DNA of 64,000 nt from Flectonema sp. DT1601. Its lineage: Eukaryota. The notes under the pieces are model-generated. The model was not told the origin of the DNA, searched no databases, and worked only from the letters and a program-made list of their open reading frames with translations. The number at the start of each line of letters is the position of its first letter. Positions within the stretch are counted from its first letter, which is position 1. Positions 36,401 to 52,600 of this stretch are shown in pieces. A program made the position numbers and the translations under genes. The DNA lies in assembly GCA_964019425.1 (NCBI GenBank), contig OZ025794.1, positions 1,054,001 to 1,118,000 of the forward strand, given 5' to 3'.

Positions 36401-39139
36401 AAAGGTAACTTCTCCGGTGGCAGGGTCAAGTCTGGAAAGGTACTGTCCCTTGCAGGACTCTCCTGCCTGAAGTGCTCCTGCTGGAGGCGTGGCAACGATG
36501 TCAGTTGCGGCAGATTCGACCTCCCCCTCAATCAAGCACATTACAATCTGGTTTTGCGCACCAATTGCTACGACTGTGCGTCCGGCTTGAGTGCGGGTGG
36601 TTGCTTGAATTATAAATTCACGACGTTCTCCAGCGACAGTGGTCTTTCCAGCTTCGTCTTTGAATTGAATATCAATCCTCTCCAGTTCCTGACGAGTTGA
36701 GCAGTATCTCGTTGCAGAATAAGGACACGACACAAATCCCCTGATCGATGAAGATCCAAAGCCACCAACATACACCAATTCTTTAAAACCTCCCTGATCG
36801 GTACAGGTAACAGTTGAGTTCCCAACTTCCATAATGAGGTCAAATTTGTCTCCCCGAGAAACGCAGGAATATGGTAAACACTTACCAGAAAAAGGCTGCG
36901 GGTTGGTCACACGATCGGCGTATTCCATGTTTGACGTGAAACACCCAGAGGCCGATCCAGCAATGCTGTAAGGTCGGCAGAGAGAACCAGTGCAGTCTTG
37001 CCCTGCCCCATTTAAAATAGCAGGCGCCAGACAACTCGATTCAGCACCCACCGGCTCGTAAATAGGACAGTGGTCCATCATTTCGTCACAACCACCATTT
37101 TGACGAGCCAATCTCTCTGCAATATCAGCGGGTATAGACCTCAGAAGTCCGACCTTCCACATGGCTGGGGAAGTGTACTCCAATGGAACCGTAGGAGGAC
37201 TGTTACTTGAGAAGAACATCCTTCTACTGTTGCAAGTTCCAATGCGACCTCCGTCGACAGTACACTGCTTAGCAGTTAAACGTGATCCGGCGCCAGGTTG
37301 GAGGATACTTTCAAAGAAACACTGGTAGTTGTTTAAGCTTGGTTGGTGGTACCAATGGTAGCAAGTCTCTCGTGCCATCACGCAACCGGCATCGAAACCC
37401 CACGAGAGGTATTCTGCAGAATTGAAATCAGCTCTGTAAAAACCGGTGTCATCAAGCATAGCAAGAGTAAGACCGGAAAGCACCGCACCAACATCAACTT
37501 GCATGTTCATAACTTCTCCCCTCGTAATACGACGCTCCCACAGGGCTGTGAAGCGCGAAGGGAAGTCAGTAAAACCGGTACCGTATCCCATCGCCGTGTG
37601 CGTGTAATCCTCAACTTCCAATCCTGTCATCGACTGGCAATTGAAGTGAAGTCTTGCCTGCTGGATAACCTTCTTAGAGCTCACAAGAGTAACCTCGGTA
37701 GGCACACCGATAGGAACTGAATTCCGCCATCCATCAAATCCCGTCCTGTACAATGCATCGGTGGAAAGCCCGTTGTCGTGTTGGTTGCGGTTTCCAGCTG
37801 TGTCGAAAACACGTTTACTGTGACGAGTCTGAGTCTGGAACATCAAGTCAGCTTCCACGGGGGTAGGTGCCTGAGTGTAGTCGTCACTCCAGTCAGCGTA
37901 TTTTTCAGCCAGTTCAGGTGTCCATCCGAGTGCCTGGACCAACTCGTGAAGTACAACAGATGCCATGTAATCAGTGTCTCCGAAGATTTGATCAGGCTGG
38001 ATCGTTAGCATACCAACAATTGGTCTAAAACTCTGCTTTGCAAAGTGACAAGGCCATGCAGCAGCGTTACTCTGAATTCTAGTACCATCTCTGTTGTAGA
38101 TCAAGACCGGGTTAGCAGCGACGAAAAGGTAAAAGTCTGCAGTGGTAGCAGTCAAAGGAAGGTTGCTAAACACATCGGTAAGCCCGTCCTTGGCGTTACA
38201 GTTGGCCTGGTTGTTAGTAACCTGAATAACGGATTCCCCCTCGGATCTCTTCAAGGCCATAATACCAGTGCGAATGCGTTTGATGGCTTCAGAAACGATG
38301 GTTCTAATTCTAGTCAACTTCGTGTTATCAATAACCCACGTACTCTCACAGTTGTAGGTCTGACCGTCAGTAGTAGTATACGCGTCCTTGGCCTCACTCG
38401 CACCGCCAGTGGCACCGTGGGCAAGTTGAATAGTTTCTCCGTTTGATCCCTGACAGGCAAACCTTTGGGAATCAAGAAGAGAATAATCAACATGGATGTT
38501 CAATGGCTCTTGTGTTTGAACGCTCGGCACGGTGAAAGTTTCGCAGTTATCACAAACGACAGCATCCTGTCTTGCCTGAACATCACTGTTTGGTTGGTGT
38601 TGTTTTTGTTTGTTGTTAATTTAAACAAATCGTTTCCCTTTGTAAGGACGTCAACGCAAAGAAAAACATCTTTCCTTTGTCCCTTGCTCATATGAACGAT
38701 TGCGAAACAGGAATAAAAACAGATATTGAGACGGCGAAAAATAAAATTCATGCGACTTAAAAAATGAATCGTCGCCTCACTATAATGAATAACTTACAAC
38801 ACCAGCTTTGGTTTCGCTTGTGCGCACCTGGAAAACAAATCTGTAAAGGAAAGTAAAACGCTATTGCTGCTGCTGCTCCCGCGATTCTCTTTCGCTCGGG
38901 AAACTAACATTAAAGAAGAAGGGGGGCAAAAAAAAAAAAAAAGGGTATCTCTCGTTTCAATAAAATAAAGTAACATACGCAGCAGTCTTTTGGAAAATTG
39001 ATCCTTGGAGATGCTTTACATCTTGATGAAGCTCTCCAAACTGACGCAGTCCTTTCGGACTGCATGTTGTGACAGGTGCAGCATCAGCCTGCCCGAAAAG
39101 GCAAAGAATTGCCCCAACCGAGATAATAGCAGATTTCAT
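6421..39139 (-). CDS. Giant secreted multidomain protein (about 10,654 aa) with N-terminal leishmanolysin/GP63-like M8 domain; proposed exons 39139-38979, 38827-38798, 38585-8234, 8102-7980, 7861-7565, 7422-6421
   Basis: The 10,113-aa open frame joins flanking ORFs through GT...CAG introns that keep the frame (donors GTATGT x4, GTAAGT x1; phases 2,2,0,0,0). Joined CDS = 31,965 nt = 10,655 codons. Exon 1 encodes a signal peptide (MKSAIISVGAILCLFGQADA). The three 3' introns interrupt one continuous domain (VVLEYEEPVYLSQ|VYVFENAEPGSVVSIW...IDSVAILG). Confidence 0.88.
7030..14300 (-). other. C-terminal region of the giant protein: EGF-like domains, LamG/concanavalin-like domain, Cys/Pro-rich repeats, discoidin-like beta-sandwich
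   Basis: EGF motifs CSGHGLCQSNGECTC, YWDGDNCEKCAEGYYGERC, CNGNGACRC...WAGEKC, CNGNGVC...WDGADC. LamG-like DFSVEMML...RWVRLRV...FSGWMREI at about 11.9-12.4 kb. Five CxxY/FxC...CxxxCxxDxxC repeats at about 8.8-10.0 kb. Confidence 0.7.
23980..25420 (-). other. Kelch-type beta-propeller within the giant protein
   Basis: Repeated Kelch blades: GRLGHAAH...FVFGG, LAGGSSVVYKNKLWYFSG, ARVEAEGFLIGTRMYVVGG, FSFYGG, LFFFGG. Confidence 0.78.
35645..36170 (-). other. C-type lectin-like domain within the giant protein
   Basis: CPWG...RCFTYV...AKEYC...YLATIPN...PYWTGLE...C...ECENTLPFFCE cysteine and WxGL pattern. Confidence 0.8.
36700..38500 (-). other. Leishmanolysin/GP63 (peptidase M8)-like domain with degenerate zinc site
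   Basis: Family motifs ADFYLFVAA, AAAWPC...RPIVG, VVLHELVQALGW, ARLHFNC...GLEVED, LWERRITRGEVM, LTLAMLDDTGFYRADF, LSWGFDAGC, DEMMDHCP. Confidence 0.9.
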
Positions 39140-39170
39140 ACTGCTAGTACACAAAGAGGAAAAAGGATAT
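39140..39170 (-). promoter_or_regulatory. Pyrimidine tract plus AG immediately before the start codon (candidate trans- or cis-splice acceptor)
   Basis: Minus strand TCCTTTTTCCTCTTTGTGTACTAGCAG-T-ATG. A comparable TTTATTCAG lies about 20 nt upstream of the SDR ATG. Confidence 0.45.
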
Positions 39171-39655
39171 TTAAAGGTTTCCTTTTCTCTTGCTCTCTTG
39201 GTTTATATTAATTATAGTTTGTTTGTTTTTTTTAATAATTTATGTATCTGATGTGAAGTAAGGGTGATAGTTTGACAATGTAGAAAACAATAAGAAATTT
39301 TATAATACTGAAATAAGTAATAAAATTAAACTGAAAAAACGACAGAAGCTTAAGCTTTCATTTTAGAATATGTATCTGATGCGAAGGGGGTAACTTGAGA
39401 CTAATATTAAAGGATGGAAAGCAACTTGAAACTGGCTAAAACTAAAGTGGCGTCCGACCAATTCCGGTTGCCATGTAAAAAAGACCAACAGTCAGTATCG
39501 ACAACACATATGTGCTGTCTGGGGGGTTAACTGTTTGATTTTGTACGTAAAATACAAATGTTTTGTATCATAAAAAACATAACGATAATTTAACATTAGT
39601 TCTGAGATACAGTGACTAGGTGTGATGCTTAACTTAGCCTTTTAAAGTAACTATT

Positions 39656-39711
39656 AGGTTTCGAGAGTAATCCATATACCTCTTACCTCTATTCTCTCAT
39701 CATCAGTATGG
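39656..39711 (-). ncRNA. Putative hammerhead ribozyme, non-circularly permuted (copy A, in the Penelope-like element 3' region)
   Basis: Minus strand reads CCAUA-CUGAUGA-U-GAGAG-AAUAGAGGUAAG-AGG-UA-UAUGG-AUUA-CUCUC-GAAA-CCU. Stem I CCAUA/UAUGG; stem II GAGAG/CUCUC; stem III CCU/AGG; GUA triplet, predicted cut between 39677 and 39676. About 170 nt downstream of the ORF2 stop on the same strand. Confidence 0.75.
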
Positions 39712-39883
39712 TGTAGAAGTAAGTCAATCATCTGTTGTGACTGAAGCATCTTAGTTAGCAAGACTAGGATGTAGTTACTTTGTTATAATGTTTATAAAAA
39801 AAACATTCTTCTTGTTATTACTAGTTCGTAGCGCACTACTAGTGGAGCACTCTTCTACAATAAATGTAGAAAGTATAAGATGA

Positions 39884-41764
39884 TTAATTATCAAGATCTG
39901 ATGCATAATCTGATACATCTTCAAAATCATGTAAAACAGGAGTCGAAGGAGTATCTAAGATGTTCGTAACGTTCTCTTTATCTTCACTTTTAGGTGTGTT
40001 GATATCTTCTTGTTTGGCTCGTTTCTTTCGTACATCTTTTCTTAGTAGCGGCTGCATAGGACTTTCAGAATTTAATCTCTTTGTATATTTCGACTTCTCC
40101 TTCTTTTTTGCTGAAGCGACTAGCATCTTATTAACCTCAACTTTGATCTTGCGTTTACTTTTAGATCCGTTCTTATTCTCTAACTTTTTTCTCTTGTCCT
40201 TGTCCATGTATCCATTAAATTCGATTATTGGAATCGGACTTTCAGAATTTAATCTTTTGCGGGTATCTCTTTTTGGTGTAGTTAGTGTACTATCCTCTTT
40301 CTCAAGAATTTGTGTTACTAGCTTTGCACCTCTTTTGATAGACCGCACGTTTAGTTTCTTCTTCTCCTTGATGACCATTGTGATCTTGTTGGAGCCATCA
40401 CTGTTGTTAACTTCATACGTTGTATTATCATGATCCATGTAATATGGAAAGTCCTTTGAGGCTCTGAATATTGCGCATATGTGGACATGATCAATAATTG
40501 ATTTTTTAGTCTTGAAGCAATATTTACATTTCCTCTTGATATGCGTTGTATCTTTGTAGGATGGTTCTGACGAGGATGTTGTAGTTGGCACGTCAGTCAT
40601 TGAGTTCTCAACTATTTCTGTTGCCTTTTCTAGTTCAACATGCGACGTTGTCTCATCTTTCTTACTTCCGGTTTCATCTTTAAGTTGGGGAAGTATCTTA
40701 CTAGATTCTTCATTGATAGGTTCCGATGTTTTATCCTTAATCTGCGTATGTGATTGCGTAATGACTTTAGTTTTAGGGATAATTGACTCGTGAGATCCAT
40801 TATTGAAAGCTTTCTTTTTGGATTGCTTCATAGCATGTTTATGAGACAGTATATTGGACTTTTTGTTACGTTTTGAACAAGGTTCAAGGGTATCACTTAA
40901 ACTTTCCGGCATTGAAGTTACGGGGTTCATACTATCTTCTGTGTCTATGACAACAGTGTTATTTCGTGCTGCTGTTTTCGGAGTTGTAACTTTTAACGAT
41001 GGTGCAGTGTATGTTGTAACAATCTTGTTAGGTTGCCTATTCATTGCTAAATCATAAATAAGCTCCCGATTGTGTCCATTCCAACAAGTTAGTGGTTCTT
41101 GTGGGACAATCTTGTTGGTTGTCGGAGTTTTGATTTTGCCTCCCGACTTTTGTTTTACCGGTGTTTCAAACACATGTCGATGTTCAGGTGTTTCTAAACA
41201 CGGTGGTGATATAGCCTCAGTCGCAATGAGACTATTGTTTCTGACCTCCATATGAACATTAGTTTGTGGTGGTGAAGCAAGTTCGTTTGCGTTGATACTG
41301 TTGTTGTCGATAACTATAGGCATATGAATACCAGTCTGCGGTGGTGAAATATACTCGAATGTCTCGAGACTGTTGTTGTTAATTACCGTATGAACATCCG
41401 TATGTGGTGGTGCAATAGGCTCAATTACGTTGAGATCATTGTTATTGATCAACATATGTACATCCGTTTGTGGTGGTGATATCTCGTTGTAGCTATTGGT
41501 ATCGACATCGGTAAGGCAAGTTTTATGAATTGAGTCGTTACTCTTTTTCTTGGCACTTATAAGAGTATCCACATGTGGTGGTGGGATGATGTCAATATCA
41601 TATAGACTTCTGTTATTGACGGCAATCACCGTGTCAATATCAATATCCATCCGAGTTGGTGAAGTAACATCTGTTGGACTCTTAGTATCGGAGGATAGTT
41701 GGCGGTGAGATGGCAACAATGCTGTCCCCGTTGTGATAGACTTGTGGGGGTGAGATGGCAGCAA
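39884..41764 (-). CDS. PLE ORF2 / frameshifted continuation of ORF1: ISPPQT-type repeats, C2HC zinc-finger-like motif, Lys-rich tail
   Basis: 626-aa open frame overlapping the ORF1 end in the +1 frame. The ISPP repeats begun in ORF1 continue here; CKYC-x9-H-x3-C at 40475-40528; duplicated KRLNSESP. Confidence 0.62.
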   Translation of the reverse strand: MLPSHPHKSITTGTALLPSHRQLSSDTKSPTDVTSPTRMDIDIDTVIAVNNRSLYDIDIIPPPHVDTLISAKKKSNDSIHKTCLTDVDTNSYNEISPPQTDVHMLINNNDLNVIEPIAPPHTDVHTVINNNSLETFEYISPPQTGIHMPIVIDNNSINANELASPPQTNVHMEVRNNSLIATEAISPPCLETPEHRHVFETPVKQKSGGKIKTPTTNKIVPQEPLTCWNGHNRELIYDLAMNRQPNKIVTTYTAPSLKVTTPKTAARNNTVVIDTEDSMNPVTSMPESLSDTLEPCSKRNKKSNILSHKHAMKQSKKKAFNNGSHESIIPKTKVITQSHTQIKDKTSEPINEESSKILPQLKDETGSKKDETTSHVELEKATEIVENSMTDVPTTTSSSEPSYKDTTHIKRKCKYCFKTKKSIIDHVHICAIFRASKDFPYYMDHDNTTYEVNNSDGSNKITMVIKEKKKLNVRSIKRGAKLVTQILEKEDSTLTTPKRDTRKRLNSESPIPIIEFNGYMDKDKRKKLENKNGSKSKRKIKVEVNKMLVASAKKKEKSKYTKRLNSESPMQPLLRKDVRKKRAKQEDINTPKSEDKENVTNILDTPSTPVLHDFEDVSDYASDLDN

Positions 41765-44700
41765 TTGTATTTACTTTGTATATTCTCGGAGGTGATACCG
41801 CCATGATTTGACACCCAGATGAGCTGTGATATAGGTTACGAAAGTTTGGGATGGTTGGTATAATCTGCGGTGTTGCAATTATAAGTGTTGTATTTTCGTA
41901 ATTAAATTGTGTATCCGTATTATAAAGTGGACCAGTTAGAATAGTGGTCATTGGTGATTCCATATGTACATCGGTATTTGGTGTAGCATATTCCATATGA
42001 CATAAGTTAGTATTCTGATTGGTGTTCAAGATATGATTGGGAACCTTAGTGAGCTTTGTGGTTCCACTTACAAAATCATTTGACTTTTGATCTTCAGAAG
42101 TTATGTAATCAGTGATGTCGAAGTGAGTATTGGGTTTAGAAGCCTTGTTAGCAACACCTATTGCTTCCTTATCGTCCAAATCCACATCTTGCTGACCTAT
42201 TTTTGGATCTAGGTGTGTATCTATCTCTGGATTTTGAATGACTTCCTTTGGATCTTGAATGACTTCCTTTGGATCTTGAATGACTTTCTTTGGATCTTGA
42301 ATGACTTTCTTTGGATCTTGAATGACTTCCTTTGGATCTTGAATGACTTCCTTTGGATCTTGAATGACTTCCTTTGGATCTTGAATGACTTCCTTTGGAT
42401 CTTGAATGACTTTCTTTGGATCTTGAATGACTTCCTTTGGATCTTGAATGACTTCCTTTGGATCTTGAATGACTTCCTTTGGATCTTGAATGACTTCCTT
42501 TGGATCTTGAATGACTTCCTTTGGATCTTGAATGACTTCCTTTGGATCTTGAATGACTTTCTTTGGATCTTGAATGACTTCCTTTGGATCTTGAATGACT
42601 TCCTTTGGATCTTGAATGACTTTCTTTGGATCTTGAATGACTTCCTTTGGATCTTGAATGACTTTCTTTGGATCTTGAATGACTTCCTTTGGTTCTTGAA
42701 TGACTTCCTTCGGTTCTTGAATGACTTTCTTTGGTTCTTGAAGGACTTCCTTATGAGTAGTATTTTCATTCGAAGATCTCAAATCCAATGGATCTGCGGC
42801 TTTAGCTGTTGTAGAGATATCATCCTCTTCAAATTTCTGTAACATCTCGTATAACAGTGCTGTGTCATCGTTATCATTCGTCTTTTGACTAAGAGTATCT
42901 TTCTCTTGTTTGTTTTCCATGTGGGGCTCCATTGTTGGATAGTCGAGGTTCGGAAATTGGAGTTTCTCCATAGGATTGTTTTTTGTAGGGCAGAATGCGA
43001 AGTGATAGTCAAATGTTTCCAAAGGATATATCCTGGCAATGTCGTTCCACGTTTCATAACTTGGAGTGTGTTGAATGATATCATATCCTGCATACTCTGT
43101 ATCTTTTCCGATAAATAAGATATAGTGAGTGTATGCTAATCTACGTGTAATTATAACGAATGGAAAGCGTTTTAGGTTTTGTTCTTTGAGTATATTGTTG
43201 ACTTTATCTAAATCTTCTGCGCTGGTACAATGGTGTATTTCTAAGGACAGATGAATCTTAATTGTCTCATATATGACTAATTGGTGAAACCATCCATCAG
43301 GATTGAATTGGAACATTTCAACCAATCCTAACCACTTCATTTCTTGTGTTGCCAACTCATCTTGAATCTTAAAGACTTTAGATATCTGAATTCTCTCGAT
43401 GTTCAGATAATCAGCCATAAAATTAATGGTGGCCCAACCACACTCACCGCTGTTAAGGCCTTCAGCTGGTTTAGTGTGCATAGAAATAGGAAACCTTTTA
43501 TCGATCGAGATATCCCATTCAGGACCTCTATCATTCTTCATAACTGGTTTTTCAGTTTGAGATTTTTCCGTTTCATCTTCTTGCGTTTCTGTAGTATTAT
43601 CTGTCATAACTACATCAGTATCTGGTGTGTTAGGAGTTGACTTCCCTTCTGTTGTAACTTCCGCCGATTTTCCAGGCGTGTCAACCTTGAGGAAGATTTT
43701 TTGAATATCACTTTCCGTATATTTACTTGTAATTGGAAAGTAATAACCTCCATTAGTACGACCAACAACCATGTGACATTCGTGATTCACATGTTTGTTA
43801 ATTATTTCACGGGTTGTCTTACCCTGGTCGTATGATAGAATACTGATGGGAACAGGTAGTATTTTGTCGAAGTCTTTGCAAAATTTGGTTACTTTAAATA
43901 TCCCATTGCGATATTTAATATCCAAAGCATCAATCTGTGTCTCAGTGTTCTTGTTTATTGCGGTGGAACATATTAGACATTGATCTGGATTGTTAGTGAT
44001 TGAGTGACTTGCAATCCGGAATGCAGTAACCATGGTGTTATTACATTTTTTGAGTTTTGCATACCCAACGTTCTTATCGAGTAACATGTTATAAATGTCA
44101 TCTCGTCCATTCAGTTTGTAGTACTGTTGGATTGTTTTCTTCTCAGAGGTGACGGGTAGTTCCTTGTCATATCTCCAATTTGTCTTGAAAAAGAATTGCT
44201 GGAGGTTATCTCTCTGTTTCGGAAAATCCCAGTATGTACTAAGAATGAAATCTTTGTATTGTGGGAAGAGGCTCTTCTTCGAGTACCCTCGGCTGCGTAG
44301 CCTGTAAATCACCTTTTCGATTTCCAAGTATAAGTCGAAGTCATTGTTGATATTGGTTGCTGCTCTGTACAAGGCTCCTTTCAATATGCCCGGACCAAGG
44401 CTTCTTGGTGCGTTTGATGTCGAGCTTGTGTATTTGATGGGTTGAAAATTGAACAGATTTTCTTTGTCCCATATTGACAGACGAATGAATGGATGTCCTC
44501 TTGGTCTTTCTTCAAATCTTACTCTCATTCCTAGGAAAACTATGTCATTGCGTCCAAGTGACGTATCTGTGTATGACATTTGATATTCAGCTTGCGGAGG
44601 TGGAGTAGGTTCATTCTTACTAAAGATTAGAAAGTCATCAATATATCTGAAGATTATCCTGTCATTAGCAATACTTAAACCATTGCTATGGATGATGTTG

Positions 44701-45263
44701 TCAATCCAGTTCTTTTCGATACCAAAGCAGTACAGATTAGCAATGTGAGGAGAGCATTGAGAACCCATTGGAATACCATGACATTGCCTTAACATATGGT
44801 CACCATTTTTAATATAAGAATTAGATAGTATTACATTCAGTAGTTCCTTGATCTCCTCTATGTTGTAAGCAACTTGCACATCTTCGTTAAATTCGTTTGC
44901 CAAGTAGAAATCTTTACCAATTCGACTTCGTTTATCTCTAACTATCAAATTGTCTCCAATGTATTCTTCGACTAATGTATTAATAACAGCTTTAATTTTT
45001 GTATGTGGTAAGTTGGTGTACATATCTGAGAAGTCAAAAGTGCTAACTCTCATTTCTTGAAGAGAGGAGTAGTTACTTTTAATGTACTGAGCAACTTCAT
45101 CAACATTATCCACAATGAAGTATTTTCTGATTCCTGTTGTATCAGATTTCTCTGTTTCGACTTTTTTAACTATAGACATAAATGTTTTCATGATTGAGGC
45201 GATCGGCAGGTGGAGGTGTTCACGATTTTTCACTTTGCTACACGAAAATTCACGATTTTTCAC
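41682..45263 (-). CDS. PLE ORF1 (N-terminally truncated): reverse transcriptase + thumb + Josephin-like protease + KEVIQDP repeat
   Basis: RT motifs STFDFSDMYTNLPH (~45030), QCHGIPMGSQCSPHIANLY (~44770), FRYIDD (YIDD 44634-44645), VFLGMRV, PLE-type thumb GALYRAATNIN...LRSRGY. The first ~20 codons come from unrelated flanking DNA. Confidence 0.82.
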   Translation of the reverse strand: MKNREFSCSKVKNREHLHLPIASIMKTFMSIVKKVETEKSDTTGIRKYFIVDNVDEVAQYIKSNYSSLQEMRVSTFDFSDMYTNLPHTKIKAVINTLVEEYIGDNLIVRDKRSRIGKDFYLANEFNEDVQVAYNIEEIKELLNVILSNSYIKNGDHMLRQCHGIPMGSQCSPHIANLYCFGIEKNWIDNIIHSNGLSIANDRIIFRYIDDFLIFSKNEPTPPPQAEYQMSYTDTSLGRNDIVFLGMRVRFEERPRGHPFIRLSIWDKENLFNFQPIKYTSSTSNAPRSLGPGILKGALYRAATNINNDFDLYLEIEKVIYRLRSRGYSKKSLFPQYKDFILSTYWDFPKQRDNLQQFFFKTNWRYDKELPVTSEKKTIQQYYKLNGRDDIYNMLLDKNVGYAKLKKCNNTMVTAFRIASHSITNNPDQCLICSTAINKNTETQIDALDIKYRNGIFKVTKFCKDFDKILPVPISILSYDQGKTTREIINKHVNHECHMVVGRTNGGYYFPITSKYTESDIQKIFLKVDTPGKSAEVTTEGKSTPNTPDTDVVMTDNTTETQEDETEKSQTEKPVMKNDRGPEWDISIDKRFPISMHTKPAEGLNSGECGWATINFMADYLNIERIQISKVFKIQDELATQEMKWLGLVEMFQFNPDGWFHQLVIYETIKIHLSLEIHHCTSAEDLDKVNNILKEQNLKRFPFVIITRRLAYTHYILFIGKDTEYAGYDIIQHTPSYETWNDIARIYPLETFDYHFAFCPTKNNPMEKLQFPNLDYPTMEPHMENKQEKDTLSQKTNDNDDTALLYEMLQKFEEDDISTTAKAADPLDLRSSNENTTHKEVLQEPKKVIQEPKEVIQEPKEVIQDPKKVIQDPKEVIQDPKKVIQDPKEVIQDPKEVIQDPKKVIQDPKEVIQDPKEVIQDPKEVIQDPKEVIQDPKEVIQDPKEVIQDPKKVIQDPKEVIQDPKEVIQDPKEVIQDPKEVIQDPKKVIQDPKKVIQDPKEVIQDPKEVIQNPEIDTHLDPKIGQQDVDLDDKEAIGVANKASKPNTHFDITDYITSEDQKSNDFVSGTTKLTKVPNHILNTNQNTNLCHMEYATPNTDVHMESPMTTILTGPLYNTDTQFNYENTTLIIATPQIIPTIPNFRNLYHSSSGCQIMAVSPPRIYKVNTIAAISPPQVYHNGDSIVAISPPTILRY
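42228..42752 (-). repeat. In-frame 21-bp minisatellite, 25 copies, encoding K(E/K)VIQ(D/E)P
   Basis: Unit GGATCTTGAATGACTT(C/T)CTTT; 525 bp = 25 x 21. Confidence 0.97.
43000..43480 (-). other. Josephin (ataxin-3-like) cysteine protease domain
   Basis: ECGWATIN (Cys 43440-43442), DGWFHQLVIYETI, THYILFIGKDTEYAGYD (His 43125-43127, Asp 15 residues later) match the order and spacing of ataxin-3 LCAQHCLN / SGFFSIQVISNAL / HWF...FNLN. Confidence 0.68.
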
Positions 45264-45362
45264 GATTTTTCACTTAATTTTTTGCTGCTTTCTGGTAGTG
45301 AAATCCCGTGAAAATGTGTGAAAATGTGTGAAAATGTGTGAATTCTAGTGAAAAAAGTGAGT
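45219..45362. repeat. Small fold-back-like element with opposed TTTTCAC / GTGAAAA sub-repeats
   Basis: Several TTCAC(GATTTT) copies on the left and GTGAAAAT(GT) copies on the right, directly at the PLE truncation point. Confidence 0.6.
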
Positions 45363-46081
45363 GATATCCAGATGGTACCGTTGGTGCTGGTGTGCTGTGC
45401 GATGTCAAACCTGTTCAGTTTGCCATACGTCATGTCACTTTGACAACTAAATGGGCATCGCTTGTGCCCAGTGACCCATCACCCTTCCTGACCATCGCTT
45501 GTGGTGAGGTTCCGGACTTTGGACCGGCGCATCGCGTGTGCGGTGGGTTTAATCACTGAGGGGCTCATTCTCGTTCATTGCCTCCTCTTTTCGCTGAGCA
45601 GTTTTTTCTTGTGCAACTTTCCTGGCAGCAGCATTTTCTGCTGCTTTCGCTGCTTTCGCTTGGGTCAGTGTGGCGGACTGCTGGGGCACCGGGAGGGAGA
45701 GGGGGTCACGCAACTTTTGCTTTGTGGGGAGCTCCAGCGCAAAGCATTCAACAACAGAGAAAATGAATGCCCCGCGCTGGGACTTGGTTGGGGGGTTAGG
45801 TAGGGATGGTGCGTCCACCGGGATGATGCTGCCATCAGGCTTGGTGAGCATGGGGTCATCGGGGACATCGCTCTTCAGCTTAGAGACCTGAATGTGGTTC
45901 ACATGGGAGAGGGCGTGGTTGACCTGCCTATTGACTTCCAGCAGGCGGGCGTGGTGAGGGGAGACTGTGTCACCGCAATAGCAGCAACGAAAAATGCCCT
46001 TTCCCCCCAAGGGTTCCAGCATGTAGAACCATCTACCTGGAAGCTCGGTATCGAGCAATGCAAAAATCTTTTCCCAATAAT

Positions 46082-47361
46082 AGACCACCAATGTTGTGCG
46101 TTGATAGGCAAGGTGACCAACCTTGACATTCTTTCTTTTCTCTCCTGTTGTGACAAACACAAAATACACACACAGCTTACAGTGTGTTCTTTGTGTATGT
46201 TTTCTTCAGGTGTGAGTAGTTTTTTTGTTCTTGCTCTTCAGGGAGGGCCTTAGCCAAAAGCTAACAGTCCAAATCTCACCTGGTAAACTCAACTCAGTCT
46301 TTGTCAGTTTTGGCATCAAACCTGTAATGGTTACATTAACTACCATTTCAACAGGTTATTTACTGAAATATTTGTTCTAAAAGTTGCTAAGTATTTCTCA
46401 CTTAGAAATTTTTTATTTTTTTATTTTCAGCTTAATCAGCTACAAATTGTTTCTACTAAGTGTTTCTCACTTAGATTTTTTTTTTGCTTTTCAGCTCCTT
46501 AAAAGCTGCTAAGTGTTTCTGCTAAGTGTTTCTCACTTAGAATTTTATTGTTATGTTCGTTTTCTATCCCCTCTTCTATCCCTTTTGTTCAAAAAAAGCG
46601 ATGAGAAATTTCTCTCATTCATGCTAAGATGCACTCTGAACTTTGATTTTTTGATCTGAGTGTGAGGGAATGACCTGTTAGTGCATTGGGCATAAGCTGG
46701 GCTGCAGTTTAGATGTCTTAGGTGTTAATAGGGGGTTCCTCTTAGCATTTTTCTTTGTTCCCACCTTATGATTTTCTTGAAGAAAAAAAATAGAAGTCAT
46801 AATGGTGCTTCCCTCTGGAAGGGTTGTAAGCCATGGTGTCCAACTAAATTAAAGGACAAGTCTGGGATAATCCCTGCCAGAGGGGCGAGTATTCTACCAT
46901 GGTTGAAATACTCTGGCAACTGATCTTCAATTTTATGTTGTTTGTTAGCTGCTGGTGTATCTTGATTATGTGTTGATACTTGCATTTTTTTATTTGTAAT
47001 CTTCTATTACAATTCTCTTTCTGTTCTGGTCTGTTACTTCATTTGTCTTGTTTAACTTCAGTTATATCCATTTTACTTTTTATTGTTTCCCATCTACTTT
47101 TTATTTTCTATTAGTTCTGGTCAGAAACTCCTGGGCAGCAAGAAGGAAAGCAGTTTAGTACTTCTGGGTGTTTGGCATCACCCCCCATAGTGAGCAAGTA
47201 CAACAGGTAGCATTGGTAGTCTGTTGATCCTGAGTGATCCCAGCTACAGTTTTGTTTTTCTTTCTTTTTTTTAGAAGAAGATCAGGACATCCAAGCACTG
47301 CTGGATAGTTGCTGAATGCAGGGCCTGCCTGTGGCATTATAATAACAGGCTAAGTCATTTG
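46082..47361 (-). repeat. Inverted, circularly permuted copy of the 1.3-kb repeat unit
   Basis: Reverse complement of the 49.6-55.2 kb unit (same 60-aa and 62-aa ORFs on the minus strand); spans the unit-unit junction at about 46295. Confidence 0.92.
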
Positions 47362-48172
47362 ACAATGTTATCATTGTTTTTTTTATCGATCGACTTTGTC
47401 GACTAATTTCTATTTTCCGTCCTGGTCAAGACGCTAAACTGATTATTTTTTTCTTTAAAAAATAAATAAAAAGAATAAAAAAAAAAAAAAAAAATGAATA
47501 AACAATGTTATCATTGTTTCTTATCGATCGACTTTGTCGACTAATTTCTATTTTCCGTCCTGGTCAAGACGCTAAACTGATTGTTTTTTCTTTTAAAAAA
47601 TAAATAAAAGATATAAAAAAAAAAAAAAAAAAAGAAATAAACAATGTTATCATTGTTTTTTTTTATCGATCGACTTTGTCGATTACTGTCTACTTTCCGT
47701 CCTGGTCAAGACGCTAAACTGATTGTTTTTTTTTAAAAATAAATAAAAAGAATATTAAAAAAAAAAAAAAAAAAAAATGAATAAACAATGTTATCATTGT
47801 TTCTTATCGATCGACTTTGTCGACTAATTTCTATTTTCCGTCCTGGTCAGGACGCTAAACTGATTGTTTTTTCTTTAAAAAATAAATAAAAAGATAAAAA
47901 AAAAAAAAAAAAAAGGAATAAACAATGTTATCATTGTTTTTTTTATCGATCGACTATGTCGATTACTTTCTATTTTCCGTCCTGGTCAGGACGCTAAACT
48001 GATTGTTTTTTCTTTAAAAAATAAATAAAAAGTTAAAAAAAAAAAAAAAAAAGGAATAAACAATGTTATCATTGTTTTTTTTTTATCGATCGACTATGTC
48101 GATTACTTTCTATTTTCTGTCCTGGTCAAGACGCTAAACTGATTGTTTTTTCTTTAAAATAATTAAAAGGAA

Positions 48173-48203
<31 letters not shown>

Positions 48204-48478
48204 GAATAAACAATGTTATCATTGTTTTTTTTTCTATCGATCGACTATGTCGATTAATTTCTATTTTCCGTCCTGATCGAGACGCTAAACTGATTGTTTC
48301 CTTTTTTTTTAAATAATAAATAAAAAATAAAAAAATAAAAAAATAAAAAAAAAGAGCATCTCCCTGCTATCCCTCATATCCCCACAATAATATTATACCT
48401 TTTCATTTTCTCTTTCCTTTTCTGGTCTTTTTTTTTTTTTTTTTTCCTTTTTCATACAACGTTTTTTTATTTATATAT
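47362..48478. repeat. ~140-bp hairpin-rich satellite (7 units) plus conserved ~125-bp tail ending in (TA)n
   Basis: Units start at about 47362, 47502, 47641, 47785, 47922, 48060 and 48210. The tail GAGCATCTCCCTGCTATCCC... recurs at about 61796 and 62854. Confidence 0.93.
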
Positions 48479-48488
48479 CATACTTGTA

Positions 48489-48642
48489 CCCCTTTAAAGG
48501 GGGCAAAATAAAGGGGAAATTAAAGGGCTTTTAATGCCCTTTAATTTCCGTAATTCCAAAATAAAGGGGAAATAAAGGGGAAATAAGCAGAATAAAGGGG
48601 GGTGGGAAAGCCCCTTTATTTCCGCTTTATTTATTAAATCCC
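48489..48642. repeat. Palindrome-rich segment built from ATAAAGGG(G) sub-repeats
   Basis: Perfect palindrome CCCCTTTAAAGGGG (48489-48502); 14-bp inverted repeat GGAAATTAAAGGGC/GCCCTTTAATTTCC (48515-48549); further AAATAAAGGGG / CCCCTTTATTT copies. Confidence 0.75.
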
Positions 48643-48669
48643 AAGGCACCCACCACGCTGCGTCATCCT

Positions 48670-49627
48670 AAGCCGGAAAGGAAAATTACTCGAAAGTCGG
48701 GGCAGTTCGAACGTCAGCATTCACATCAGCAAGCAACCAGTCCTGAGTACTTAAAGAACCCAACCATTACGTGTATCAGTCACAGTCACACTTAGTATAG
48801 CGTTAGTACAGAGGACACGGATCTGCTATGCAGGGAAGTGACTTGAACTCGTTCAACTAATTAATGTGTGTAGATATAAGCGCCGCGAATTGACGGGTCT
48901 GAAGTTATGCTTTCCGAAGAGAGCAACCACCCACGCGAGTGTTATTTTGACGCTATAACCTGTGACTTTCAACACGTAACAACCAGGGATAATTCTCAGT
49001 AAGGCCGCCGTCACCGTGAAGCTGCTACGAATATAACCCAACAAACTAGCAATTCCTCCAACTTTTTTCGTCAGTCGGGATTGTTACATGCCGGAAAAGG
49101 AAACTACTCGAAAGTCGGGGCAGTTCGAACGTCAGCATTCACATTAGCAAGCAACCAGTCTTGAGAACCCAACCATTACGTGCATCAGCCACAGTTAACC
49201 TGCAACTTTCAACATGTAACAACCAGGGATAATTCTCAATAAGGCCGCCGTCACCGTGAAGCTGCTACGAATAACAGTTCGAACGTCAACATTCACATTA
49301 GCAAGCAACCAGTCTTGAGAACCCAATGATTACGTGAATCAGTCACAGTTAACCTGCAACTTTCAACATGTAACAACCAGGGATAATTCTCAATAAGGCC
49401 GCCGTCACCGTGAAGCTGCTACGAATAACAGTTCGAACGTCAGCCTTCACATTAGCAAGCAACCAGTCTTGAGAACCCAATGATTACGTGAATCAGTCAC
49501 AGTTAACCTGCAACTTTCAACATGTAACAACCAGGGATAATTCTCAATAAGGCCGCCGTCACCGTGAAGCTGCTACGAATAACAGTTCGAACGTCAGCAT
49601 TCACATTAGCAAGCAACCAGTCTTGAG
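48670..49627. repeat. 154-bp tandem repeat array (left part)
   Basis: CAGTTCGAACGTC recurs at 49121, 49275, 49429 and 49583 (period 154); a longer variant lies at about 48670-49050. Confidence 0.93.
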
Positions 49628-52600
49628 GTTGAGTTTACCAGGTGAGATTTGGACTGTTAGCTTTTGGCTAAGGCCCTCCCTGAAGAGCAAGAACAAAAAA
49701 ACTACTCACACCTGAAGAAAACATACACAAAGAACACACTGTAAGCTGTGTGTGTATTTTGTGTTTGTCACAACAGGAGAGAAAAGAAAGAATGTCAAGG
49801 TTGGTCACCTTGCCTATCAACGCACAACATTGGTGGTCTCTACTAGACCCTGAGTGATCCCACTGGATCTCTCATCGTTCATAGTACCTATGTGAAGTTA
49901 TAAAATCAAAGGTAAACTATGAACTACAAATGACTTAGCCTGTTATTATAATGCCACAGGCAGGCCCTGCATTCAGCAACTATCCAGCAGTGCTTGGATG
50001 TCCTGATCTTCTTCTAAAAAAAAGAAAGGAAAACAAAACTGTAGCTGGGATCACTCAGGATCAACAGACTACCAATGCTACCTGTTGTACTTGCTCACTA
50101 TGGGGGGTGATGCCAAACACCCAGAAGTACTAAACTGCTTTCCTTCTTGCTGCCCAGGAGTTTCTTACCAGAACTAATAGAAAATAAAAAGTAGATGGGA
50201 AACAATAAAAAGTAAAATGGATATAACTGAAGTTAAACAAGACAAATGAAGTAACAGACCAGAACAGAAAGAGAATTGTAATAGAAGATTACAAATAAAA
50301 AAATGCAAGTATCAACACATTATCAAGATACACCAGCAGCTAACAAACAACATAAAATTGAAGATCAGTTGCCAGAGTATTTCAACCATGGTAGAATACT
50401 CGCCCCTCTGGCAGGGATTATCCCAGACTTGTCCTTTAATTTAGTTGGACACCATGGCTTACAACCCTTCCAGAGGGAAGCACCATTATGACTTCTATTT
50501 TTTTTCTTCAAGAAAATCATAAGGTGGTAACAAAGAAAAATGCTAAGAGGAACCCCTTATTAACACCTAAGACATCTAAACTGCAGCCCAGCTTATGCCC
50601 AATGCACTAACAGGTCATTCCCTCACACTCAGATCAAAAAATCAAAGTTCAGAGTGCATCTTAGCATGAATGAGAGAATTTCCTCCCGCTTTTTTTGAAC
50701 AAAAGGGATAGGAGAAGGGATAGAAAACGAACATAACAATAAGATTCTAAGTGAGAAACACTTAGTAGAAACACTTTGTAGCTAATTGAGCTGAAAATAA
50801 AAAAATAAAAAAAAATTCTAAGTGAGAGATACTTAGCAACTTTTAGAACAAATATTTCAGTAAATAACCTGTTGAAATGGTAGTTAATGTAACCATTACA
50901 GGTTTGATGCCAATACTGACAAAGACTGAGTTGAGTTTACCAGGTGAGATTTGGACTGTTAGCTTTTGGCTAAGGCCCTCCCTGAAGAGCAAGAACAAAA
51001 AAACTACTCACACCTGAAGAAAACATACACAAAGAACACACTGTAAGCTGTGTGTGTATTTTGTGTTTGTCACAACAGGAGAGAAAAGAAAGAATGTCAA
51101 GGTTGGTCACCTTGCCTATCAACGCACAACATTGGTGGTCTCTACTAGACCCTGAGTGATCCCACTGGATCTCTCATCGTTCATAGTACCTATGTGAAGT
51201 TATAAAATCAAAGGTAAACTATGAACTACAAATGACTTAGCCTGTTATTATAATGCCACAGGCAGGCCCTGCATTCAGCAACTATCCAGCAGTGCTTGGA
51301 TGTCCTGATCTTCTTCTAAAAAAAAGAAAGAAAAACAAAACTGTAGCTGGGATCACTCAGGATCAACAGACTACCAATGCTACCTGTTGTACTTGCTCAC
51401 TATGGGGGGTGATGCCAAACACCCAGAAGTACTAAACTGCTTTCCTTCTTGCTGCCCAGGAGTTTCTTACCAGAACTAATAGAAAATAAAAAGTAGATGG
51501 GAAACAATAAAAAGTAAAATGGATATAACTGAAGTTAAACAAGACAAATGAAGTAACAGACCAGAACAGAAAGAGAATTGTAATAGAAGATTACAAATAA
51601 AAAAATGCAAGTATCAACACATTATCAAGATACACCAGCAGCTAACAAACAACATAAAATTGAAGATCAGTTGCCAGAGTATTTCAACCATGGTAGAATA
51701 CTCGCCCCTCTGGCAGGGATTATCCCAGACTTGTCCTTTAATTTAGTTGGACACCATGGCTTACAACCCTTCCAGAGGGAAGCACCATTATGACTTCTAT
51801 TTTTTTTCTTCAAGAAAATCATAAGGTGGTAACAAAGAAAAATGCTAAGAGGAACCCCTTATTAACACCTAAGACATCTAAACTGCAGCCCAGCTTATGC
51901 CCAATGCACTAACAGGTCATTCCCTCACACTCAGATCAAAAAATCAAAGTTCAGAGTGCATCTTAGCATGAATGAGAGAATTTCCTCCCGCTTTTTTTGA
52001 ACAAAAGGGATAGGAGAAGGGATAGAAAACGAACATAACAATAAGATTCTAAGTGAGAAACACTTAGTAGAAACACTTTGTAGCTAATTGAGCTGAAAAT
52101 AAAAAAATAAAAAAAAATTCTAAGTGAGAGATACTTAGCAACTTTTAGAACAAATATTTCAGTAAATAACCTGTTGAAATGGTAGTTAATGTAACCATTA
52201 CAGGTTTGATGCCAATACTGACAAAGACTGAGTTGAGTTTACCAGGTGAGATTTGGACTGTTAGCTTTTGGCTAAGGCCCTCCCTGAAGAGCAAGAACAA
52301 AAAAACTACTCACACCTGAAGAAAACATACACAAAGAACACACTGTAAGCTGTGTGTGTATTTTGTGTTTGTCACAACAGGAGAGAAAAGAAAGAATGTC
52401 AAGGTTGGTCACCTTGCCTATCAACGCACAACATTGGTGGTCTCTACTAGACCCTGAGTGATCCCACTGGATCTCTCATCGTTCATAGTACCTATGTGAA
52501 GTTATAAAATCAAAGGTAAACTATGAACTACAAATGACTTAGCCTGTTATTATAATGCCACAGGCAGGCCCTGCATTCAGCAACTATCCAGCAGTGCTTG

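What the first reader, a model, noticed from the sequence alone, without database searches (positions are those of the whole stretch)
43000..45200. Penelope-like RT fused to a Josephin-like cysteine protease where the endonuclease normally sits
Seen: after the RT and thumb there is no GIY-YIG or HNH motif. Instead there is a domain with Cys (ECGWATIN), a DGWFHQLVI motif, and His...Asp spaced 15 residues apart (THYILFIGKDTEYAGYD). Established: ataxin-3 has C14...N20, SGFFSIQVI and H119/N134 with these spacings; Josephin-related proteases are known in Dualen/RandI non-LTR elements; endonuclease-less PLEs (Athena, Coprina) exist. Inference: a PLE lineage with an apparently intact deubiquitinase/self-processing protease, an architecture I do not know from PLEs. 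An N-terminal endonuclease cannot be excluded because this copy is 5'-truncated.
Basis: partly seen in the sequence, partly recalled or inferred. Interest (0 to 1): 0.82.

Follow-up and report, generated by a model that had tools for sequence, protein, structure and literature searches.

The report
Chlamys-type Penelope element with Josephin-fold protease
This is a broken, 5'-truncated copy of a Penelope-like jumping gene whose protein carries, behind its reverse transcriptase, a domain predicted to fold like the Josephin ubiquitin-removing proteases and likely to act as one; the same layout was already reported from a stonewort alga in 2021, so it is a new member of a known kind.

Summary
The minus-strand ORF 41682-45269 encodes an RT and thumb. 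Behind them lies a domain with Cys610 (GECGW), a DGWF motif, His715 and Asp730. No GIY-YIG or HNH follows the RT.

With an 11-sequence alignment, AlphaFold2 gives a confident model (pLDDT 83, pTM 0.80). Its best structural matches are Josephin domains: ATXN3L Z 12.1, JOSD2 10.9, ataxin-3 10.7. The next fold, C39 peptidases, scores about 8. Cys-to-His (105) and His-to-Asp (15) spacings equal those of ataxin-3. Pfam's Josephin model does not match.

The RT is a Chlamys-type (permuted) Penelope-like element. Full-length paralogues carry the CxC and DK motifs, and a sister family carries an N-terminal GIY-YIG. "Where the endonuclease sits" therefore likely misreads the clade. Whether this family itself has an endonuclease stays open.

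The window copy is dead: 5'-truncated at about 45203 and frameshifted near 41690.

Craig et al. 2021 already list three Chara braunii Chlamys families with a C-terminal Josephin domain. New here are the fold-level support and related RTs that carry USP or OTU-like domains at the same position. A deubiquitinase role is inferred, not shown.

The parts
39887..45203 (-). Single 5'-truncated, frameshifted copy of the retroelement. It corresponds to aa 254-1943 of full-length paralogue P0013.
   Evidence: tblastn of P0013 and P0020 against the window; alignment A1.
44184..45194 (-). RT from just before motif 3(A) through the thumb. Motif A FDFSDMY is at 45018-45038, B GIPMG at 44763-44777 and C YIDDF at 44631-44645. 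Homology to relatives ends at about 44184.
   Evidence: Pfam RVT_1 E 1.1e-08; BLASTP P0013 vs P0021, 34% over 608 aa, ending at the thumb; coordinates.
43500..44183 (-). Linker of about 228 aa between thumb and protease domain; no fold or family assigned.
   Evidence: No Pfam hit; Atlas features gave no usable hit. MAFFT's pairing with the OTU Cys box of P0021 has no other support.
42987..43475 (-). Josephin-fold cysteine-protease-like domain (aa 599-761 of the ORF; 42963-43520 was modelled). Cys610 is at 43440-43442, DGWF at 43287-43298, His715 at 43125-43127 and Asp730 at 43080-43082.
   Evidence: AF2 pLDDT 83.1, pTM 0.80; Foldseek and VIA-align top matches are Josephin domains; homologues; coordinates.
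42228..42752 (-). In-frame 21-nt tandem array (25 copies, 96% matches) encoding (EVIQDPK)n. Copy number differs between paralogues.
   Evidence: TRF; the repeat finder family D1; paralogue sequences.
41690..41694 (-). Frameshift that splits what is one ORF in intact paralogues into ORFs 41682..45269 and 39884..41770.
   Evidence: tblastn HSPs end at 41694 and resume at 41689; sequence; P0013, P0014 and P0010 read through.
39887..41689 (-). C-terminal tail of the polyprotein (about 600 aa). It has SPPQT.VHM-type internal repeats, a Cys/His motif CKYCF...HVHIC at 40475-40528 and a KR-rich end.
   Evidence: tblastn; no Pfam hit; coordinates.
45219..45354 (.). Short 10-nt tandem repeats that abut the 5' junction of the truncated copy; possible repeat-type target.
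   Evidence: TRF; sequence. No matching repeat was found at the 3' side.

Best explanation
The window holds one dead (5'-truncated, frameshifted) copy of a multi-copy Chlamys-type Penelope-like retrotransposon whose single long protein carries, behind RT and thumb, a domain predicted to adopt the Josephin fold with an intact Cys-His-Asp triad, and which likely works as a deubiquitinase that would strip ubiquitin from the element's own protein or RNP, or from a host restriction target. Shown: the RT, the truncation, the frameshift and the conserved domain family. Also shown are the predicted fold with its best structural matches, and related RTs that carry USP or OTU-like domains at the same place. 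Inferred: catalytic activity, ubiquitin as the substrate and any benefit to transposition. Open: whether this family's full-length protein begins with a GIY-YIG endonuclease, as its sister family's does.
For: PLE and Chlamys type. RT motifs in the window copy and CxC, DK and PYLYGxxKxHK motifs in its full-length paralogues P0013 and P0020 look by eye like the rows printed for Chlamys-1_cBra in the supplement of Craig et al. (RT3(A), RT4, DK, CxC). Sister family P0021 shares 34% identity from the CxC motif to the thumb (E 2e-83). It has an N-terminal GIY-YIG (Pfam E 0.0023, 18.6 bits vs cut-off 22.6) followed by a KR-rich block. Motif A-to-B spacing is 74-99 aa in 4 of 4 relatives measured, which fits an IFD.

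Fold. AF2 with 11 sequences gave pLDDT 83.1 and pTM 0.80. In Foldseek, ranks 1-9 are Josephin entries at E 7e-5 to 7e-4. In the VIA second look, the five best are eukaryotic Josephins at Z 12.1 (rmsd 2.9, 146 aligned), 10.9, 10.7, 10.7 and 9.7, and the next fold scores 8.7. In the Foldseek-independent search of 48,161 chains, only 3 reach Z >= 8 and all three are Josephins.

Triad. Cys sits at the N-terminus of helix 26-38, His just before strand 133-138 and Asp at the end of strand 143-147. Spacings of 105 and 15 equal ataxin-3's Cys14/His119/residue 134 (passage in PMC4276913). For the conservation counts see the observation check.

DUB function. Related RTs carry other ubiquitin-protease classes behind the thumb. 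P0004 and P0005 have Pfam UCH (USP) at E 2.5e-21 and 1.3e-07. P0021 has Pfam OTU at E 0.0019, full profile length but below the cut-off. What the three classes share is cleavage after ubiquitin's C-terminus.

Activity of the family. Listed paralogues are mostly 91-99% identical over long ORFs, and the 15 listed members carry seven distinct longest-contig lengths.
Against: No sequence method ties the domain to Josephin. Pfam PF02099 matched 0 of 11 family members at E <= 10. PDB sequence searches with the single domain and with a profile found no protease. The alignment behind the model has only 11 partly fragmentary rows, and two of the five AF2 models were poor (pLDDT 56.5 and 55.8). Foldseek TM-scores are moderate (0.52-0.58) and C39 peptidases are not far behind. 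The Atlas's nearest named clusters were C39-like, not Josephin. No ubiquitin substrate, activity or expression was tested. For the window's own family no endonuclease was seen. The RT was placed by motifs and by eye, not by a phylogeny.
Confidence: 0.68

Rival explanations
1. The domain is chiefly a cis-acting processing protease that would cut the polyprotein of more than 2,000 aa (RT / protease / repeat tail), as papain-like proteases of RNA viruses do. Any deubiquitinase activity would be secondary or absent.
For: The protein is very long and modular. Viral OTU and papain-like enzymes combine both roles (abstract of PMC5695851 in the listing). Second-tier fold matches are double-glycine C39 leader peptidases.
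Against: There is no recurrent Gly-Gly site between RT and protease. Of the RT-bearing relatives checked (P0013, P0021, P0004, P0005, P0041), only P0013 has a GG between thumb and protease. The total GG count is at chance level, 2 found against 1.4 expected in P0013. Exchange among Josephin, USP and OTU classes is easier to explain by a shared ubiquitin substrate than by a shared cleavage site in unrelated flanking sequence.
Confidence: 0.17
2. The domain is a generic compact papain-fold peptidase (C39-like or a family of its own) that only resembles Josephin by convergence. It is not a homologue and need not act on ubiquitin.
For: Pfam Josephin gave 0 of 11 hits. There were no PDB sequence hits. 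Atlas features point to Peptidase_C39 and C39_2 clusters at 0.94-0.95 with few shared features. C39 chains score Z 7-8.7.
Against: Eukaryotic Josephins stand 2-4 Z units above every other fold and cover 131-150 aligned residues at rmsd 2.9-3.7. The Cys-His and His-Asp spacings are identical to ataxin-3's. Craig et al. independently reported a Josephin match in the same position of Chara Chlamys elements.
Confidence: 0.1
3. The domain is a decayed or non-catalytic relic (for example a ubiquitin-binding module) with no enzymatic role.
For: The window copy itself is dead. One relative, P0042 of Diplonema papillatum, has Ser for Cys and Gln for His.
Against: The triad is kept in the sequences that cover it, across families only 26-51% identical: Cys in 6 of 7, His in 7 of 8, Asp in 7 of 7. 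Long, nearly identical intact ORFs exist in the same cluster.
Confidence: 0.05

Closest known systems
Chlamys-1_cBra, Chlamys-4_cBra and Chlamys-6_cBra of Chara braunii (Craig, Yushenova, Rodriguez, Arkhipova 2021, PMC8557442)
   Same: A permuted-type PLE RT with CxC and DK motifs. A very long ORF (about 1,800 aa there, at least about 2,060 aa here). A C-terminal extension with a Josephin(-like) domain followed by a region with a Cys/His motif, and tandem repeats that lengthen the element.
   Different: The amino-acid make-up is very different (K/N/I-rich here, by eye), so this is another host and family. No GIY-YIG has been seen yet for this family. Only one short Cys/His motif was found. The Josephin parts could not be compared because the supplement's protein sequences are cut on display.
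Eukaryotic Josephin deubiquitinases (ataxin-3, ATXN3L, JOSD2; PDB 1yzb, 2dos, 3o65, 6pgv)
   Same: The predicted fold (Z 9.7-12.1). The Cys at a helix N-terminus, with His and Asp on neighbouring strands. The same Cys-His (105) and His-Asp/Asn (15) spacings.
   Different: Only 13-15% identity. No Pfam or PDB sequence match. The domain is embedded in a retroelement polyprotein. Activity is untested.
Dualen non-LTR retrotransposons with a Josephin-like cysteine protease (Kojima and Fujiwara 2005, as cited by Craig et al.; the original paper was not read)
   Same: A Josephin-like protease carried as an accessory domain of a retrotransposon, proposed to interfere with protein degradation.
   Different: No sequence comparison was made here.
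Other ubiquitin-protease domains in mobile elements and viruses: OTU-like protease of Helentrons (PMC6431247 passage); TYMV PRO/DUB (abstract only)
   Same: A ubiquitin-type cysteine protease fused to the replication or transposition protein.
   Different: Different protease class and different mobile-element class.

Membership tests
Penelope-like elements, Naiad/Chlamys (N-terminal EN+) clade | PLE-type RT core (motifs 3(A), 4(B), 5(C), thumb) | tested here: met
   FDFSDMYTNLPH, GIPMG and YIDDF are in the window copy. By eye they are like the printed Chlamys-1_cBra rows. Pfam RVT_1 E 1.1e-08. No phylogeny was run.
Penelope-like elements, Naiad/Chlamys (N-terminal EN+) clade | N-terminal GIY-YIG endonuclease | tested here: inconclusive
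   The window copy is truncated. None of the 15 listed members (of 35) of its cluster reaches that far. Sister family P0021 has GIY-YIG at aa 101-196, Pfam E 0.0023, 18.6 bits, below the cut-off of 22.6.
Penelope-like elements, Naiad/Chlamys (N-terminal EN+) clade | CxC motif and GxKF/Y motif between EN and RT | tested here: met
   CKC in P0013 and P0020, CPC in P0021 and P0004. G..[FY]R follows in P0021 and P0004 by pattern and GARYR in P0013 by eye. These lie in paralogues, not in the truncated window copy.
Penelope-like elements, Naiad/Chlamys (N-terminal EN+) clade | DK(G/A) motif; in Chlamys DK with a variable third residue | tested here: met
   IDKTTHD (P0013, P0020), VDKARHD (P0021), VDKASHD (P0004).
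Penelope-like elements, Naiad/Chlamys (N-terminal EN+) clade | IFD: a lengthened region between RT3(A) and RT4(B) | tested here: inconclusive
   Spacing from A to B is 87, 92, 99 and 74 aa in P0013, P0021, P0004 and P0041. No canonical PLE was measured beside them.
Penelope-like elements, Naiad/Chlamys (N-terminal EN+) clade | No canonical hammerhead ribozyme | tested here: met
   The Rfam scan of 38000-51000 at E <= 1 listed 5 matches, none a hammerhead. This covers only this truncated copy and its flanks.
Penelope-like elements, Naiad/Chlamys (N-terminal EN+) clade | 5' truncation, pseudo-LTR or tandem arrangement, microsatellite targets | tested here: inconclusive
   5' truncation is present. 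There is no second or tandem copy in the window. 10-nt tandem repeats abut the 5' junction, but the 3' end is undefined and has no matching repeat.
Josephin / MJD deubiquitinases (Pfam PF02099) | Sequence match to the family model | tested here: not met
   0 of 11 members of A3 match at E <= 10. P0006 gave none. PDB sequence searches gave none.
Josephin / MJD deubiquitinases (Pfam PF02099) | Josephin fold | tested here: met
   Predicted model only. VIA Z 12.1, 10.9, 10.7, 10.7 and 9.7 to ATXN3L, JOSD2 and ataxin-3. The only 3 of 48,161 chains with Z >= 8 are Josephins. Foldseek ranks 1-9 are Josephin entries.
Josephin / MJD deubiquitinases (Pfam PF02099) | Cys-His-Asn/Asp triad in order and register | tested here: met
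   Cys610, His715 and Asp730 with spacings 105 and 15, against Cys14, His119 and residue 134 of ataxin-3. Positions on helix and strands.
Josephin / MJD deubiquitinases (Pfam PF02099) | Ubiquitin (iso)peptidase activity | not testable with these tools
   Needs an enzyme assay.
Peptidase C39 (double-glycine leader peptidases) | Fold or sequence match better than other papain-like families | tested here: inconclusive
   ComA, HlyB-CLD and PCAT1 score Z 7.2-8.7, below Josephins. There is no Pfam C39 hit. Atlas features nearest to C39 clusters score 0.94-0.95.

The most novel reading that the evidence does not exclude
A ubiquitin-stripping module is a near-obligatory but exchangeable accessory of a widespread protist lineage of Chlamys-like Penelope elements. 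Josephin-fold, USP and OTU-like proteases have each been plugged in behind the same RT thumb, without tracking RT similarity. Some of these families (this one and the Rhynchopus transcript) may truly begin downstream of the endonuclease and so lack it. That would make deubiquitination a retrotransposon counter-defence comparable to the DUBs of viruses.
Probability: 0.3. Interest if true: 0.65.

Novelty: new member of a known kind. Interest (0 to 1): 0.4.

Why it matters
Penelope-like elements are the least understood class of eukaryotic retrotransposons, and what their accessory domains do is unknown.

This work turns a published remark ("weak homology to Josephin" in Chara elements) into a concrete object. 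It gives a domain family with a confident Josephin-fold model, named catalytic residues and clear boundaries. It also shows that related RTs carry USP or OTU-like domains in the same slot.

Together these give a testable hypothesis: this lineage needs to remove ubiquitin. They also give defined constructs for testing it.

For genome annotation, the result shows that the fragmentary "hypothetical proteins" with this domain, one of them named from a diplonemid, are related to a retroelement domain.

Tried and rejected
- Single-sequence AF2 of the 226-aa domain failed (pLDDT 31.8).
- Pfam on the domain found only chance-level hits (PH_trem, Propeptide_C25, Longin).
- PDB sequence searches found no protease or RT: single domain, domain profile A2, whole P0021 (it matched only a zinc-finger region, E 0.0008), and profile of A1.
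- The word-based search for longer fused relatives of the domain returned only the element's own cluster (1 protein among 203 candidates).
- Idea of a decayed OTU domain in the linker (aa about 440-560). MAFFT paired NNPDQCLICS with the OTU Cys box of P0021, but BLASTP shows no similarity past the thumb and Atlas features gave no usable hit. Dropped.
- Idea of ubiquitin-like Gly-Gly self-cleavage sites. There is no recurrent site. Dropped as evidence.
- Locus searches found nothing: metagenome scans with the Cys-box alignment A4 (15 pattern matches, none confirmed) and with P0045 (42, none confirmed), and a viral-contig scan with A4 (13, none confirmed).
- Sequencing runs: none was listed and no RNA holder was listed.
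- No whole genome is held for the window, so copy number, termini and the N-terminus could not be read from DNA.
- The 3' flank has no copy of the 10-nt repeat seen at the 5' junction.
- Earlier-scan look-ups by place and by sequence gave nothing.
- Literature. Searches found only Craig et al. 2021 linking a PLE with Josephin, and no paper linking a PLE with a USP or OTU domain. Search 69 and the passages of PMC12278014 gave nothing on PLEs in diplonemids. PMC3846280 has no mention of Josephin, OTU, protease or ubiquitin in its text.
Full report
**What is in the window.** On the minus strand a stop-to-stop frame runs 41682..45269 (1195 aa, P0001). A second frame, 39884..41770, overlaps its end. 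Pfam finds RVT_1 at aa 44-220 (E 1.1e-08). At E <= 1 it finds nothing else in either frame or in the upstream ORF 45549..46205, so there is no GIY-YIG or HNH behind the RT.
- GECGW at aa 608-612 (43434-43448)
- DGWF at aa 658-661 (43287-43298)
- THYILF...AGYD at aa 714-730 (43080-43130)

Cys610 to His715 is 105 residues and His715 to Asp730 is 15.

**It is one dead copy of a multi-copy element.** The protein's 90%-identity cluster has 35 members, of which 15 were listed. Across those 15 the longest-contig column shows seven distinct lengths. Longer members (P0013 1943 aa, P0014 1921 aa, P0010 1689 aa) read straight through the point where the window's two frames meet. tblastn of P0013 gives 254-1338 at 45200..41694 and 1340-1943 at 41689..39887. 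The window copy therefore has a frameshift near 41690-41694. It lacks everything before aa 254 of P0013, which is aa 371 of the longest model, P0020. There is no second copy in the window. Listed paralogues are mostly 91-99% identical, so the family was active recently. A 21-nt in-frame array (25 copies, 42228-42752) varies in copy number among paralogues.

**The RT is a Chlamys-type Penelope-like element.** The first search found three further clusters (4 proteins at E <= 0.001 among 3278 candidates). P0003, whose full-length form is P0021, shares 34% identity with P0013 over 608 aa, from a CxC motif to the end of the thumb (E 2e-83). No similarity follows the thumb.

Full-length sequences carry the features that Craig et al. 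2021 (PMC8557442; sections 5, 6 and 9 read) use to recognise the permuted Naiad/Chlamys clade:
- CxC (CKC or CPC), followed by G..[FY]R
- DK with a variable third residue
- PYLYGxxKxHK (alignment A1)

P0021 begins with a GIY-YIG (Pfam E 0.0023, 18.6 bits, below the cut-off of 22.6). By eye, a KR-rich block follows it, and its core has one Cys rather than the CCHH pair, which is the Chlamys condition.

The rows printed for Chlamys-1_cBra in that paper's supplement (RT3(A), RT4, DK, CxC, GIY-YIG) look by eye very like ours. Motif A-to-B spacing is 74-99 aa in 4 of 4 sequences measured. That fits an IFD, but I measured no canonical PLE beside them. No hammerhead was found in 38000-51000. I ran no RT phylogeny, because no reference PLE sequences could be handed to the tools. 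A PDB profile search found no RT.

**The endonuclease question.** For the window's own family the matter is open. The longest listed model (P0020) starts at a Met that aligns about 280 aa into P0021, downstream of GIY-YIG and the KR block. The transcript-derived P0004 (EukProt label Rhum_; Rhynchopus humris is my reading of that label, and the taxon exists) starts at the homologous place. Either both lost the EN, or both models start after a break in the frameshift-prone KR block that Craig et al. describe.

**The domain is a real, conserved family.** Pfam, PDB sequences and a word-based search for longer proteins gave nothing beyond the element's own cluster. The exhaustive phmmer search found 9 proteins at E <= 0.001, of which 4 were <= 1e-10. 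A profile search added two more (6 proteins at E <= 0.01). Notable members:
- P0041: a PLE RT and thumb followed directly by the domain.
- P0043: an RT fragment plus the domain.
- P0042: "hypothetical protein DIPPA_24124 [Diplonema papillatum]".

In alignment A3, read by eye, Cys is kept in 6 of 7 covering sequences, [DE]GW[FI] in 7 of 8 and His in 7 of 8. Asp at His+15 is kept in all 7 that have the His. Only the Diplonema protein departs, and it has lost both Cys and His.

**The fold.** Single-sequence AF2 failed (pLDDT 31.8). With the 11-row alignment A3 the 186-aa query (42963-43520) gave pLDDT 83.1 and pTM 0.80. The five models scored 83.1, 78.4, 76.7, 56.5 and 55.8. Cys (model residue 27) opens helix 26-38, His (132) precedes strand 133-138 and Asp (147) ends strand 143-147.

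| Search | Result |
|---|---|
| Foldseek vs PDB | Ranks 1-9 are Josephin entries (ATXN3L 3o65, bacterial PcJOS and BpJOS, ataxin-3 2dos and 1yzb), E 7e-5 to 7e-4, TM 0.51-0.58. The C39 peptidase ComA follows at rank 10, E 7e-4. |
| VIA-align second look | 3o65_A Z 12.1 (rmsd 2.9, 146 aligned), JOSD2 10.9, ataxin-3 10.7, 10.7 and 9.7. Then HlyB C39-like 8.7 and ComA 8.4. |
| VIA-align wide, 48,161 chains, Foldseek-independent | Only 3 chains reach Z >= 8, all Josephins (12.1, 10.9, 8.2). ComA scores 8.0. |

A review passage gives ataxin-3's triad as Cys14, His119 and residue 134 (PMC4276913). Those spacings, 105 and 15, equal ours. Against homology, Pfam's Josephin model matches 0 of 11 members at E <= 10. 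The Atlas's nearest named clusters were C39-like.

**What it likely does.** Related RTs carry other ubiquitin proteases in the same slot. P0004 and P0005 have Pfam UCH (USP) at E 2.5e-21 and 1.3e-07. P0021 has Pfam OTU at E 0.0019 over the whole profile, below the cut-off, and otubain C65 at E 0.007.

RT cores are 30-39% identical in all full-length pairs, and protease class does not follow RT similarity. The window's family is closest to the OTU bearer (38.8%). The two USP bearers are the least alike (29.7%).

The property these classes share is cleavage at ubiquitin's C-terminus. I therefore infer a deubiquitinase that would protect the element's protein or RNP, or disarm a host ubiquitin-dependent restriction. 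Craig et al. cite the same idea for Dualen. Self-processing is the main rival, but I found no recurrent Gly-Gly site between RT and protease. Nothing about activity or expression was tested, and no sequencing run was listed.

**Novelty.** Craig et al. [quoted passage not shown] Their metadata list three such Chara braunii families of 6.5-7.4 kb. Our element has the same order: RT, Josephin-fold domain, repeats, then a tail with a CKYCF...HVHIC motif (40475-40528). The architecture is therefore in print, and this is a new member from another host. Its K/N/I-rich protein differs from the printed Chara sequence (by eye).

I could not compare the Josephin parts, because the supplement's protein sequences are cut on display. 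My searches found no paper that reports USP or OTU domains in PLEs.

**Host.** Unknown. It is a eukaryote with GT..AG introns. No genome is held for the window.

Noticed in passing
window 8189-38620 (-), with upstream exons to about 39140: A single open frame of 10,143 aa. Pfam finds Leishmanolysin (M8, E 1.3e-32) near its start, then Kelch/beta-propeller and a weak PAN domain. By eye, a signal-peptide-like first exon and two short GT..AG introns lie at about 38620-39140. The retroelement copy sits just upstream of this giant gene.
   Followed up: partly
window 45472-45555 (-): A weak full-length match to the twister-P1 ribozyme model: 31.1 bits against a gathering score of 67.2; E 0.002 over 13 kb and 6.3e-05 over 401 nt. 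It has a 22-nt insertion, and several consensus positions are changed. It lies about 270 nt upstream of the truncated element on the same strand. It could be chance.
   Followed up: partly
window 46082-47361 and 49927-51141: A large inverted repeat (arms of 781, 346 and 107 nt at 91-98%) encloses two satellite arrays, of 138-139 nt (47362-48353) and 154 nt (49121-49627). It is a separate structure that abuts the element's 5' flank. Its nature is unknown.
   Followed up: no
window 45549-46205 (-): A GC-richer 218-aa open frame with no Pfam match. It partly overlaps one arm of the inverted repeat.
   Followed up: no
P0020 and P0004 (relatives, not in the window): The longest model of the window's family and the transcript-derived USP-bearing relative both begin with Met at homologous positions (M..SDK.N...W), downstream of where GIY-YIG lies in P0021. 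This hints that these families may lack the endonuclease.
   Followed up: partly
P0042 (Diplonema papillatum hypothetical protein DIPPA_24124): A 193-aa annotated protein that belongs to the same domain family but has Ser for the Cys and Gln for the His. It is probably a decayed element fragment annotated as a gene.
   Followed up: partly
P0021 aa about 1351-1413 (relative): The OTU-bearing relative ends in a Cys-rich zinc-finger-like region that matches PDB 6tly ('Protein kinase, putative') at E 0.0008. This parallels the Cys/His tail motif of the window's family.
   Followed up: no
window 60001-62000: G+C falls to 0.20, against 0.34-0.53 elsewhere in the window.
   Followed up: no
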